Assembly: GCF_002854065.1 (NCBI RefSeq)
Contig: NZ_CP024147.1
Length of the DNA: 64,000 nucleotides
Direction: 5' to 3' (one strand)
Origin: Escherichia coli
Lineage (GTDB): Bacteria > Pseudomonadota > Gammaproteobacteria > Enterobacterales > Enterobacteriaceae
Part shown: positions 59,501 to 61,827 of the stretch, in pieces
Layout of the letters: every line of letters begins with the position of its first letter
How positions within the stretch are numbered: position 1 is the first letter of the stretch
Program-made: the position numbers

Positions 59501-61827
59501 TCAGCCGTTGCCGGTGGGGCGATAGGCCTGTTGTTCGAAAACGTGTTGATGGTGCTGCTCAAGCCCGTTCTGCCTGCTGCACTACCGCCAGCCAGCCTCT
59601 GTCCGTGGCTGTGGGCGCTCGGCACCATGACAGTCATCTCGCTGCTGGTGGGGCTACGACCGTACCGCTTGTTGTTGGCAACGCAGCCTTTACGCGTATT
59701 ACGTAATGATGTGGTAGCGAACGTCTGGCCGCTGAAGTTTTATCTGCCGATTGTCAGTGTGGTGGTTGTGCTGCTGCTCGCCGGATTAATGGGCGGCAGT
59801 ATGCTGCTCTGGGCGGTGCTGGCGGGCGCGGTAGTACTGGCTTTGCTGTGCGGTGTGCTGGGCTGGATGCTGCTGAATGTACTTCGCCGCATGACGCTGA
59901 AATCGCTGCCTCTGCGCCTGGCGGTTAGCCGCCTGTTACGTCAGCCGTGGTCAACGTTAAGCCAGCTTTCGGCATTTTCGCTCTCCTTTATGCTGCTGGC
60001 ACTGCTACTGGTGCTGCGTGGCGATTTGCTCGACCGCTGGCAGCAGCAGCTACCGCCAGAAAGCCCGAACTACTTTTTAATCAACCTCGCCACAGAACAG
60101 GTAGCACCGCTAAAAGCGTTCCTCGCGGAACATCAGATAGTCCCGGAATCGTTTTATCCGATGGTGCGGGCACGGCTGACGGCGATTAACGATAAGCCGA
60201 CAGAAGGTAATGAAGATGAGGCGCTTAACCGCGAACTCAATCTTACCTGGCAAAATACGCGGCCCGATCATAATCCGATTGTCGCCGGTAACTGGCCGCC
60301 AAAAGCCGATGAAGTGTCGATGGAAGAGGGGCTGGCGAAACGCTTAAACGTTGCCCTCGGCGATACTGTGACTTTTATGGGCGATACCCAGGAGTTCCGC
60401 GCTAAAGTGACCAGCCTGCGCAAAGTGGACTGGGAAAGTCTGCGGCCTAATTTCTATTTTATTTTCCCTGAAGGGGCATTAGACGGGCAACCGCAGAGCT
60501 GGCTTACCAGTTTCCGCTGGGAGAATGGCAACGGCATGTTGACGCAACTCAACCGCCAGTTCCCTACCATTAGCCTGTTAGACATTGGCGCGATTTTAAA
60601 ACAGGTCGGTCAGGTGCTGGAGCAGGTAAGTCGGGCGCTGGAGGTGATGGTGGTGCTGGTCACCGCCTGCGGTATGTTGCTGTTGCTGGCACAGGTGCAG
60701 GTGGGAATGCGTCAGCGTCATCAGGAGCTGGTGGTGTGGCGCACACTCGGTGCGGGGAAAAAACTGCTGCGTACCACGTTGTGGTGTGAGTTCGCCATGC
60801 TTGGGTTTGTTTCCGGCCTGGTGGCCGCAATTGGTGCGGAAACGGCACTGGCAGTGTTGCAGGCGAAAGTGTTTGATTTTCCGTGGGAGCCAGACTGGCG
60901 ATTGTGGATTGTTCTGCCGTGCAGCGGTGCGCTGCTGCTGTCGCTTTGCGGCGGCTGGCTGGGCGCACGACTGGTTAAGGGTAAGGCGCTGTTCAGGCAG
61001 TTTGCGGGGTGATGACAGGTGTTAGATTGCCTGATGCGCTACGCTTATCAGGCCTACGAATATCGTGCAATATATTGATTTTGCAAGATTTTGTAGGCCG
61101 GATAAGGCGTTTGCGCCGCATCCGGCAGTTGTGCGGCGGTGCCTGATGCGACGCTGGCGCGTCTTATCATGCCTACAAAACTGCACTCAACCGTAGGCCG
61201 GATAAGGCGTTTACGCCGCATCTGGCATGAACAGTGTGCATTTTGGCAATAAATATGAAACCAACTGTCATGTCGGTTTTTTTAAAGGCCGAAGGTGGTA
61301 AACCTTCGGCCTTAGCGACGTTTCCTCAGTTATTCAATAAACTGACGGATCAGTTCCAGCAGCGCGATTAGCGCCTTAAGAACGATGAGAACTTTATCGA
61401 GAAAAGTTTTCATCCGTTGCTCCCTTAAGGGAGAAAGACAATCACAGCTTACCCTTACGTTGCCTGTAACTATGATTTTCTTCATGTGCTAGATGAGGAC
61501 TGCCTCTCTCCAAATTAGAGCACCAGAATCAGCACCACCTGTATCCTGACCAGGACTTAAAAGTACTTTTCCGCACTGCGGTAATCCCTTGAGGCAGTAT
61601 CACTACTAGCGTCGGGATTGTATCGCCAACATAGCTGTTTGAATATGTAGGCATCCTGACTTATAATTCACTTGCTAGATGAGGACTGTTTCATTTCTGC
61701 CCGGAACCACCAAGTCTTGGGCGGAAAAAATAAAAAAAACGACTGTCATGTCGGTTTTTTTATATCTGTATTCTGGTGCAACCATTCTGTTCTCACGACA
61801 ATCGCCGTTTCAGAATACCGCCCATCA

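What the first reader, a model, noticed from the sequence alone, without database searches (positions are those of the whole stretch)
61013..61824. ybbP-selU junction lacks the Rhs element found in K-12 and carries a REP cluster plus the small-RNA/toxin module
From memory of K-12 gene order, rhsD and associated genes separate ybbP from selU there. Here the two genes are only ~810 bp apart, filled with a ~5-copy REP cluster, terminators and the candidate toxin-antitoxin module. This defines a variable hotspot and indicates the source strain is not K-12-like at this site.
Basis: established knowledge. Interest (0 to 1): 0.35.

Follow-up and report, generated by a model that had tools for sequence, protein, structure and literature searches.

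The report
Rhs-free ybbP–selU spacer with DinQ-like toxin
In this E. coli strain the gap between ybbP and selU holds four REP repeats and a small, already described DinQ-like toxin/antisense-RNA module where K-12 has its 7.3-kb RhsD element; this is one of four common, ordinary versions of a variable site.

Summary
ybbP ends at 61012 and selU (mnmH) at 61825, 812 bp apart. K-12 has 7.3 kb there: rhsD, ybbC, three pseudogenes and ylbG. Homology with K-12 stops 6 bp after the ybbP stop codon and resumes at the selU stop codon.

The spacer holds four REP units, not about five, followed by a 570-bp low-GC insert (61241-61810). The insert encodes:
- a 27-aa peptide that passes NCBIfam's DinQ model;
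- a divergent sRNA that passes Rfam's AgrB model, whose 5' end pairs with the toxin 5' UTR.

It is a roughly 70%-identical paralogue of K-12 dinQ-agrAB, of the published dql (dinQ-like) family, and has no LexA box.

Among 5,426 complete E. coli genomes:
- about 53% carry the K-12-type Rhs junction;
- 24.5% carry this module, of which about 15% have lost the toxin;
- 10.6% carry an Hcp-effector island;
- 10.1% have REPs only.

E. albertii has the REP-only form, so the module looks like a later insertion. RefSeq already annotates it as dinQ. The finding is correct but ordinary and of low novelty.

The parts
58598..61012 (+). ybbP (ABC transporter permease), left boundary gene
   Evidence: NF041854, 1455 bits. 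97% identical to K-12 up to 61018.
61029..61057 (+). REP1, GCCTGATGCGCTACGCTTATCAGGCCTAC
   Evidence: Inverted repeat with REP4 (I2). It is the site of an IS621 insertion in strain H5.
61050..61092 (-). AT-rich REP1-REP2 linker; matches Rfam ES036 (CssrF)
   Evidence: 55.3 bits against a gathering score of 37.6.
61093..61127 (-). REP2, inverted orientation
   Evidence: Part of the naRNA4 match 61096-61173 (79 bits). Direct repeat D2 with REP4, 94%.
61140..61176 (+). REP3
   Evidence: Part of the naRNA4 match. Inverted repeat I1 with REP2. REP2+REP3 (61093-61192) are absent from the 2-REP alleles.
61193..61227 (-). REP4, inverted orientation
   Evidence: D2 copy, 94% to REP2.
61241..61810 (.). 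570-bp dql insert, absent from REP-only alleles, which read GTGCA|CAGAAT. GC is 43% against 58% in ybbP.
   Evidence: Alignments with E. coli L005/L006/L007 and E. albertii L012; coordinates and GC.
61245..61284 (+). Partial (80%) copy of the sRNA 3' end and terminator. On the minus strand it is the second terminator hairpin of the toxin mRNA.
   Evidence: Direct repeat D1 with 61723-61762. Minus-strand terminator hit 61279..61258. The recombinant 'solo' copy is seen in L017.
61285..61313 (-). GC-rich hairpin after the toxin stop codon; positionally equivalent to the dinQ terminator
   Evidence: I5, 12-bp perfect arms. Aligns with the K-12 dinQ terminator.
61330..61413 (-). 27-aa DinQ-like toxin, MKTFLDKVLIVLKALIALLELIRQFIE. 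RefSeq annotates a 51-aa form from 61485.
   Evidence: NF041472, 40.9 bits above the cut-off of 30. 65% identical to DinQ over 23 aa. PGAP annotation.
61420..61433 (-). Shine-Dalgarno GGGAG within the palindrome CTCCCTTAAGGGAG (SD-sequestering hairpin)
   Evidence: The SD is paired in the minimum-free-energy fold of the full-length mRNA; probability unpaired 0.02.
61487..61511 (-). sRNA target site in the toxin 5' UTR
   Evidence: Direct repeat D3 with 61667-61688. 16 perfect pairs followed by G-U pairs. Duplex energy -47.3 kcal/mol.
61610..61622 (-). Putative toxin promoter -10 TACAAT (61622-61617) and +1 G61610. Inferred, weak -35.
   Evidence: Relaxed scan. Gives a 197-nt UTR against 194 nt in dinQ. 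Not found by the standard promoter scan.
61639..61667 (+). sRNA promoter, TTGAAT-17-TATAAT
   Evidence: 10 of 12 consensus matches.
61674..61763 (+). AgrB-like antisense sRNA with an intrinsic terminator
   Evidence: Rfam RF02891, 46.4 bits above the gathering score of 40, full length. About 70% identical to K-12 agrA.
61825..62919 (-). selU/mnmH, right boundary gene
   Evidence: NF008749, 757 bits. Homology to K-12 resumes at 61823.

Best explanation
The ybbP-selU spacer is a long-standing variable site that carries one of several alternative cargoes. This strain has the 'REP + dql' allele: a four-unit REP (BIME-type) cluster, then a 570-bp insert encoding a second, chromosomal DinQ-family type I toxin-antitoxin locus. 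K-12 and about half of E. coli have a 7.3-kb RhsD element instead, swapped from stop codon to stop codon. That pattern is most simply explained by allele replacement through homologous recombination in the flanking core genes.

By homology with dinQ/agrB, the module most likely works as follows (all inferred):
1. A minus-strand mRNA with a roughly 197-nt 5' UTR encodes a 27-aa membrane peptide.
2. The 5' end of the full-length mRNA pairs with an internal segment, and the Shine-Dalgarno sequence is locked in a CUCCC/GGGAG hairpin.
3. A constitutively transcribed 90-nt sRNA from the divergent TTGAAT/TATAAT promoter pairs through its first 25 or so nucleotides with that same internal segment. This keeps translation off and probably triggers RNase III cleavage.

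Unlike dinQ itself, this copy has no LexA operator, so it is probably not SOS-induced.

Shown here: gene identities, repeat anatomy, family matches, complementarity, allele frequencies and the outgroup state. Inferred: transcription start of the toxin mRNA, processing, toxicity, and direction of the evolutionary events.
For: Structure of the site:
- K-12 layout and breakpoints.
- Allele census: 2,902 Rhs, 1,332 module, 573 Hcp island and 550 REP-only, out of 5,426 genomes.

Identity of the module:
- DinQ HMM above cut-off.
- AgrB covariance model above the gathering score.
- Collinear alignment at about 70% identity with K-12 dinQ-agrA.

Regulatory anatomy:
- 10/12 promoter match for the sRNA.
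- 22-nt direct repeat linking the sRNA 5' end and the UTR target.
- Whole-sRNA duplex -77.5 kcal/mol against -45.8 +/- 3.8 for shuffles.
- The cognate pair (-47.3) is stronger than the cross pairs with K-12 dinQ (-37.6) or agrB (-31.1).
- The SD hairpin and the pairing of the 5' end with the target appear in the minimum-free-energy fold.
- A 4-sequence consensus fold of dinQ and dql UTRs has 13 of 36 pairs with compensatory changes, including the 2:3 duplex.

Conservation and evolutionary direction:
- The toxin/target segment is at least 99% identical in 1,131 of 1,135 genomes.
- The true dinQ locus is present in 5,422 of 5,426 genomes, so this is an extra copy.
- E. albertii has the 4-REP allele with the same empty junction.

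Literature:
- The dql family, with chromosomal copies alongside dinQ (PMC5066626).
- DqlB-agrB validated as a base-pairing-dependent TA system on pOXA-48 (PMC12365149).
Against: - No transcript or toxicity data exist for this copy.
- The standard promoter scan finds no toxin promoter on the minus strand. The proposed -10 has only a weak -35.
- Minimum-free-energy folds of 5'-truncated mRNAs do not expose the SD as the dinQ model requires.
- About 15% of carriers have deleted the toxin start, SD and target, so the toxin is dispensable.
- The direction of events (insertion versus deletion, Rhs gain versus loss) rests on one outgroup and could be blurred by recombination.
Confidence: 0.85

Rival explanations
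1. The module is a decaying, non-functional remnant of a DinQ-type locus with no present activity.
For: - No consensus toxin promoter and no LexA box.
- About 197 of 1,332 carriers have lost the toxin start, SD and target through a 108-bp deletion.
- A 'solo terminator' recombinant exists.
Against: - The ORF, SD, start codon, strong sRNA promoter, terminators and cognate complementarity are all intact.
- At least 99% identity in 1,131 of 1,135 genomes.
- The UTR keeps the family's structural elements.
- dinQ itself also has a weak -35.
Confidence: 0.15
2. The protein product is the 51-aa ORF (61485..61330) annotated by RefSeq/PGAP, not the 27-aa peptide.
For: PGAP calls a 156-nt CDS, WP_001308457.1, in near-identical genomes. 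The ORF is open from an ATG at 61485.
Against: - The DinQ HMM aligns only to residues 5-26 of the 27-aa form.
- GGGAG lies 6 nt (61414-61419) before ATG 61413.
- In K-12 the long ATG-initiated forms are not translated and the 27-aa form is the product (PMC3567139).
- Kristiansen et al. note that Dql peptides are often annotated with a spurious longer N-terminus.
Confidence: 0.1
3. The window-type allele is derived by loss of an ancestral Rhs element, and REP-only alleles are deletions of the module, rather than Rhs and the module being separate gains.
For: - The Rhs allele is the majority allele (53%).
- One O157:H7 genome (TR01) has the Rhs element sitting inside window-type flanks.
- Deletion between the 27-40-nt direct repeats demonstrably occurs (L017).
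Against: - The window retains no Rhs-derived sequence.
- The TR01 junction is a singleton, 1 of 5,426, and other O157:H7 genomes are K-12-type.
- E. albertii and 550 E. coli genomes share the same clean GTGCA|CAGAAT junction with no module remnant, unlike the scar left by repeat-mediated deletion.
- No Rhs element was seen at this site in the other Escherichia species sampled.
Confidence: 0.15

Closest known systems
dinQ-agrA/agrB type I toxin-antitoxin locus of E. coli K-12 (gor-arsR spacer; Weel-Sneve 2013, Kristiansen 2016)
   Same: - 27-aa hydrophobic peptide with the core IVL.ALIALLELIR.
- A 5' UTR of about 195 nt, an SD-sequestering hairpin and a 2:3 duplex.
- A divergent, non-overlapping sRNA whose 5' end is antisense to the UTR.
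- The same gene order and spacing.
   Different: - Different chromosomal site.
- Only about 70% nucleotide identity.
- One sRNA gene rather than two, plus a 40-nt partial copy downstream of the toxin.
- ATG rather than GTG start.
- No LexA operator.
- The predicted cross-pairing with dinQ and agrB is weaker than AgrA-dinQ, which is known to be non-protective.
dql (dinQ-like) genes dqlA/dqlB of Enterobacteriaceae (Kristiansen et al. 2016); DqlB-agrB addiction module of pOXA-48 (2025)
   Same: - A DinQ homologue outside the gor-arsR locus that coexists with dinQ.
- Annotated with an over-long N-terminus, as that paper describes.
- The C-terminus ELIRQFIE resembles DqlB's ELIRQFID.
   Different: - Chromosomal rather than plasmid-borne.
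- Fails the NCBIfam DqlB model (24.5 bits, below the cut-off of 35) and passes the DinQ model.
- Plasmid relatives are only 60-80% identical.
- Assignment to dqlA could not be checked, because the paper's figure and supplement sequences are not held.
RhsD element of E. coli K-12 (rhsD-ybbC-ylbH-ybbD-ylbI-ylbG)
   Same: Occupies exactly the same ybbP-selU spacer, in 2,902 of 5,426 genomes.
   Different: Absent here. There is no sequence homology between the two spacers.
BIME/REP clusters (Rfam naRNA4/REP325-type, ES036)
   Same: Alternating-orientation REP units with an AT-rich linker, copy-number polymorphism of 0, 2 or 4 units, and an IS621 target.
   Different: Nothing unusual. The classification into Y/Z1/Z2 REP types and the IHF-site (RIP) reading rest on memory and were not tested.

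Membership tests
DinQ/AgrB-family type I toxin-antitoxin (including dql) | Small hydrophobic peptide matching the DinQ profile | tested here: met
   NF041472 toxin_DinQ, 40.9 bits against a cut-off of 30, E = 1.8e-10.
DinQ/AgrB-family type I toxin-antitoxin (including dql) | Divergently transcribed, non-overlapping AgrB-type sRNA next to the toxin gene | tested here: met
   Rfam RF02891 AgrB, 46.4 bits against a gathering score of 40, full model, 61675-61763 (+). Promoter match 10/12.
DinQ/AgrB-family type I toxin-antitoxin (including dql) | The sRNA 5' end is complementary to the toxin 5' UTR upstream of the SD | tested here: met
   - 22-nt direct repeat D3.
- 16 perfect pairs, extending to 25 nt with G-U pairs and one mismatch.
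- The cognate duplex (-47.3 kcal/mol) is stronger than the cross pairs.
- z of about -8 against shuffles for the whole sRNA.
DinQ/AgrB-family type I toxin-antitoxin (including dql) | 5' UTR with mutually exclusive 1:2, 2:3 and 3:4 pairings that gate the SD | tested here: inconclusive
   - 1:2 and 3:4 appear in the minimum-free-energy fold of the full-length mRNA.
- 2:3 complementarity exists and is the conserved helix in the 4-sequence consensus fold (13 of 36 pairs compensatory).
- Truncated mRNAs do not show an open SD in the minimum-free-energy fold.
DinQ/AgrB-family type I toxin-antitoxin (including dql) | Toxicity of the peptide and neutralisation by the sRNA | not testable with these tools
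   Demonstrated only for dinQ (PMC3567139) and for pOXA-48 DqlB (PMC12365149).
dinQ proper ('damage-inducible' DinQ, the name RefSeq gives it) | LexA operator(s) at the promoter; gor-arsR location | tested here: not met
   - No CTG-N10-CAG anywhere in 61000-61850. The best site has 5/6 core and 11/20 total matches, whereas the K-12 control scores 6/6 and 15/20.
- The locus is ybbP-selU, about 70% identical to dinQ.
- The true dinQ is present separately in 5,422 of 5,426 genomes.
DqlB (NCBIfam NF041473) | Score above the curated cut-off | tested here: not met
   24.5 bits against a cut-off of 35.
REP/BIME cluster | Imperfect palindromic REP units of about 35 nt in alternating orientation | tested here: met
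   naRNA4 79 bits and ES036 55 bits. Direct repeat D2 and inverted repeats I1 and I2.
Rhs element at ybbP-selU | Rhs core ORF and associated genes between ybbP and selU | tested here: not met
   The window spacer is 812 bp and has no similarity to the K-12 Rhs region.

The most novel reading that the evidence does not exclude
The ybbP-selU spacer may be a dedicated 'toxin cargo' slot in Escherichia. Three unrelated toxin systems alternate there as mutually exclusive alleles: Rhs, an Hcp-Tle1-like effector with DUF2931 genes, and a type I DinQ-like TA.

Within that reading, the dql copy would be a LexA-independent toxin, insulated from agrB, that is gained and lost as a 570-bp cassette by recombination at its own terminator repeats. 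The toxin-deleted, sRNA-retaining derivatives would be orphan antitoxins.
Probability: 0.3. Interest if true: 0.35.

Novelty: already known. Interest (0 to 1): 0.2.

Why it matters
The practical value is mostly for annotation.
- The strain can be typed as non-K-12 at this hotspot.
- RefSeq labels the small gene 'damage-inducible DinQ' with a 51-aa product. It is more accurately a LexA-box-less dql paralogue encoding about 27 aa, with an unannotated AgrB-like sRNA beside it.
- About one E. coli genome in five therefore carries a second, intact DinQ-family toxin. That is relevant to persistence and membrane-stress studies done in non-K-12 strains, and to sRNA cross-talk with plasmid dqlB-agrB modules.

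None of this changes current understanding.

Tried and rejected
1. LexA regulation. No operator was found, while the K-12 control was found.
2. Reproducing the '+44' SD-opening switch by minimum-free-energy folding of truncated mRNAs. The SD stayed paired, so the result is inconclusive.
3. Rhs having replaced the module. This was suggested by O157:H7 TR01, but that junction is unique among 5,426 genomes and other O157:H7 genomes are K-12-type, so it was not used as evidence.
4. Anti-addiction cross-neutralisation of plasmid dql toxins by this sRNA. Predicted duplexes with two IncX plasmid UTRs are weak, -28 and -29 kcal/mol against -47 for the cognate pair. My search for the plasmids' own sRNAs in that script was flawed and is not used.
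5. A plasmid origin for the module. Only relatives at 60-80% identity were found.
6. A literature search for a named ybbP/selU hotspot returned nothing useful.
7. The supplement and figure sequences of Kristiansen 2016 are not held, so the dqlA assignment could not be verified.
8. The standard promoter scan found no toxin promoter. A relaxed scan gave the TACAAT candidate.

Full report
**Observation**

The window has a 2,415-nt ORF at 58598-61012 (+) and a 1,095-nt ORF at 61825-62919 (-). NCBIfam names them YbbP (NF041854, 1455 bits) and tRNA 2-selenouridine synthase MnmH/SelU (NF008749, 757 bits). They converge on an 812-bp spacer, 61013-61824.

In K-12 MG1655 the same two genes are 7,301 bp apart. 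They are separated by rhsD, ybbC, the pseudogenes ylbH, ybbD and ylbI, and ylbG. blastn shows that homology between the window and K-12 ends at 61018, 6 bp past the ybbP stop codon, and resumes at 61823, at the selU stop codon. Nothing in between is shared.

**REP cluster**

There are four REP units, not about five: 61029-57, 61093-127, 61140-76 and 61193-227, in alternating orientation.
- REP2 and REP4 are 94% identical direct copies 100 bp apart.
- REP1/REP4 and REP2/REP3 form inverted pairs.
- Rfam's naRNA4 model (a REP-pair family) matches REP2+REP3 at 79 bits against a gathering score of 59.5.
- ES036 matches the AT-rich REP1-REP2 linker at 55 bits against 37.6.

This is an ordinary BIME-type cluster. 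From memory, the units look like Z2, Y, Z1, Y, and the first linker resembles an IHF-binding RIP linker. I did not test that.

**Toxin/sRNA module**

On the minus strand, 61413..61330 encodes MKTFLDKVLIVLKALIALLELIRQFIE (27 aa), with GGGAG 6 nt upstream of the ATG.
- It scores 40.9 bits on NCBIfam toxin_DinQ (cut-off 30).
- It scores only 24.5 bits on the DqlB model (cut-off 35).

On the plus strand, Rfam AgrB matches 61675-61763 end to end at 46.4 bits (gathering score 40). This match is preceded by TTGAAT-17-TATAAT, a 10/12 promoter match.

The region aligns collinearly with the K-12 gor-arsR locus (dinQ, agrA) at about 70% identity. It lacks the second sRNA copy that K-12 has.

Pairing between the sRNA and the toxin mRNA:
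- The sRNA 5' end repeats 61481-61502 (22 nt, 91%), so it is antisense to the toxin 5' UTR.
- Pairing is 16 perfect base pairs, extendable to 25 nt with G-U pairs and one mismatch.
- Duplex energy for the first 35 nt is -47.3 kcal/mol with its own UTR.
- It is -37.6 with the K-12 dinQ UTR, and -31.1 for agrB on this UTR.
- AgrA-dinQ scores -42.7, and AgrA is experimentally non-protective (PMC3567139). The two systems are therefore probably insulated. This is an inference.

A candidate toxin promoter is the -10 TACAAT at 61622-61617 with a weak -35. It would start the mRNA at G61610.
- That gives a 197-nt UTR, against 194 nt in dinQ.
- The resulting 5' end, GCUAGUAGUGAUACUGCCUC, mimics the sRNA 5' end and pairs with the same target in the minimum-free-energy fold.
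- In that fold the SD is locked in CUCCC-UUAA-GGGAG.

A consensus fold of this UTR with dinQ and two plasmid homologues keeps the '2:3' helix and two stem-loops. Compensatory changes occur in 13 of 36 pairs. Folding of truncated mRNAs did not reproduce an open SD, so that part of the dinQ model is unconfirmed here.

No LexA box (CTG-N10-CAG) exists anywhere in 61000-61850, while the K-12 control site is recovered. RefSeq's name 'damage-inducible' is therefore unsupported for this copy.

**Known family**

Kristiansen et al. 2016 (PMC5066626) described dinQ-like (dql) genes in chromosomes and plasmids of Enterobacteriaceae. These sometimes sit alongside dinQ and are often annotated with an over-long N-terminus. 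That fits the 51-aa RefSeq CDS found at this spot in near-identical genomes.

DqlB-agrB of pOXA-48 was shown in 2025 to be a toxic peptide neutralised by base-pairing with its sRNA (PMC12365149).

The true dinQ locus is present in 5,422 of 5,426 complete E. coli genomes, so the module here is an additional paralogue. Plasmid relatives are only 60-80% identical.

**The site as a hotspot**

Among 5,426 complete E. coli genomes:

| Allele | Genomes |
|---|---|
| K-12-type ybbP/Rhs junction | 2,902 |
| This module, always chromosomal, nearly always a single copy (at most two places per genome) | 1,332 |
| Island encoding an Hcp fused to a Tle1-like domain, plus DUF2931 proteins | 573 |
| REP-only junction, reading GTGCAC\|AGAATCC | 550 |

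Together these are 98.7% of genomes.

REP-only alleles have 0, 2 or 4 REPs, giving 58-, 140- and 240-bp spacers. Relative to them, the module is a clean 570-bp insert (61241-61810) with 43% GC, against 58% in ybbP.

Variants of the module allele:
- Loss of REP2+REP3.
- A 108-bp deletion (61391-61498) that removes the toxin start codon, SD and sRNA target but keeps the sRNA gene. The intact segment is in 1,135 genomes, so about 15% of carriers are toxin-less.
- IS621 inserted in REP1.
- In the GTDB representative E. coli genome, a 'solo terminator' recombinant. There the toxin and most of the sRNA were removed by recombination between the direct repeats 61245-84 and 61723-62.

**Outgroups**

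A degenerate ybbP motif scan of one genome per species gave 48 loci.
- The convergent ybbP/selU pair is conserved across Enterobacteriaceae, with spacers from about 0.09 to 5 kb.
- In other genera the spacer holds an outer-membrane beta-barrel gene and/or an NlpA-lipoprotein ABC transporter.
- E. albertii has the 4-REP allele with the same empty junction.
- An unclassified Escherichia (E1V33) has the module at 99% identity.
- E. whittamii and MOD1-EC7003 have the Hcp-island flank.

This favours REP-only as the older state, with the module, Rhs and Hcp islands as separate acquisitions. The argument rests on few genomes, and recombination could mislead it.

One O157:H7 genome (TR01) shows the Rhs element inside window-type flanks. 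It is 1 of 5,426 and other O157:H7 genomes are K-12-type, so I set it aside.

**Verdict**

The finding is accurate and its interpretation is supported. The content is ordinary: a REP cluster, a published and RefSeq-annotated DinQ-family type I module, and a known kind of accessory-genome hotspot.

The useful extras are:
- the four-allele census;
- the exact 570-bp cassette boundaries;
- the absence of a LexA box;
- the toxin-deleted and solo-terminator derivatives.

Interest is low.

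Noticed in passing
L008 (NZ_CP010169, strain H5) 4723-6000; corresponds to window 61055/61056: An IS621 (IS110-family) copy is inserted inside REP1, between AGGCCT and AC, in an otherwise window-type allele.
   Followed up: partly
L009 (NZ_CP033605, O157:H7 TR01) 5994/5995 and 12000/12001: The Rhs element has the same ends as in K-12 but lies within window-type flanks (half of REP1 on the left, the last 35 bp of the dql insert on the right). The junction is unique among 5,426 genomes, so it is either a recombinant or an assembly artefact.
   Followed up: partly
L004 (NZ_CP173493); window 61391-61498: A 108-bp deletion removes the toxin start codon, the SD and most of the sRNA target but keeps the sRNA gene. 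About 197 of 1,332 module-bearing genomes lack this segment.
   Followed up: partly
L017 (E. coli SCPM-O-B-8794, GTDB representative) 1705-1937: A 'solo terminator' allele. The module's left and right ends are joined through a single hybrid copy of the 27-40-nt repeat, and the toxin and sRNA body are gone. It is 91-94% identical to the window, so it is an old allele.
   Followed up: partly
L010 (NZ_CP036245, S65EC) 12382-16384: The alternative cargo at the same site is a 667-aa Hcp fused to a Tle1-like phospholipase domain, plus three DUF2931 genes. It is found in 573 genomes, and its flank is also seen in E. whittamii.
   Followed up: partly
window 61330-61485 (-): RefSeq/PGAP annotates a 51-aa 'damage-inducible type I toxin DinQ' here. 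The N-terminal extension is probably spurious, the name implies SOS control that the sequence does not support, and the adjacent AgrB-like sRNA is not annotated.
   Followed up: yes
window 61591-61610 (-) against 61674-61692 (+): The putative 5' end of the toxin mRNA (GCUAGUAGUGAUACUGCCUC) resembles the sRNA 5' end (GCUAGAUGAGGACUGUUUC). Both are complementary to the same UTR segment.
   Followed up: partly
L025, L018, L014, L027 and others (ybbP-selU spacers of Salmonella arizonae, Citrobacter, Pluralibacter, Enterobacter): In other genera the same spacer holds a beta-barrel outer-membrane protein of about 380 aa and/or an NlpA-lipoprotein/ABC transporter operon. Escherichia lacks both.
   Followed up: partly
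window 4055-4119, 18340-18423, 19721-19798: Rfam gathering-score hits elsewhere in the window: the DnaX frameshift element, the sroB sRNA and another naRNA4-type REP pair.
   Followed up: no
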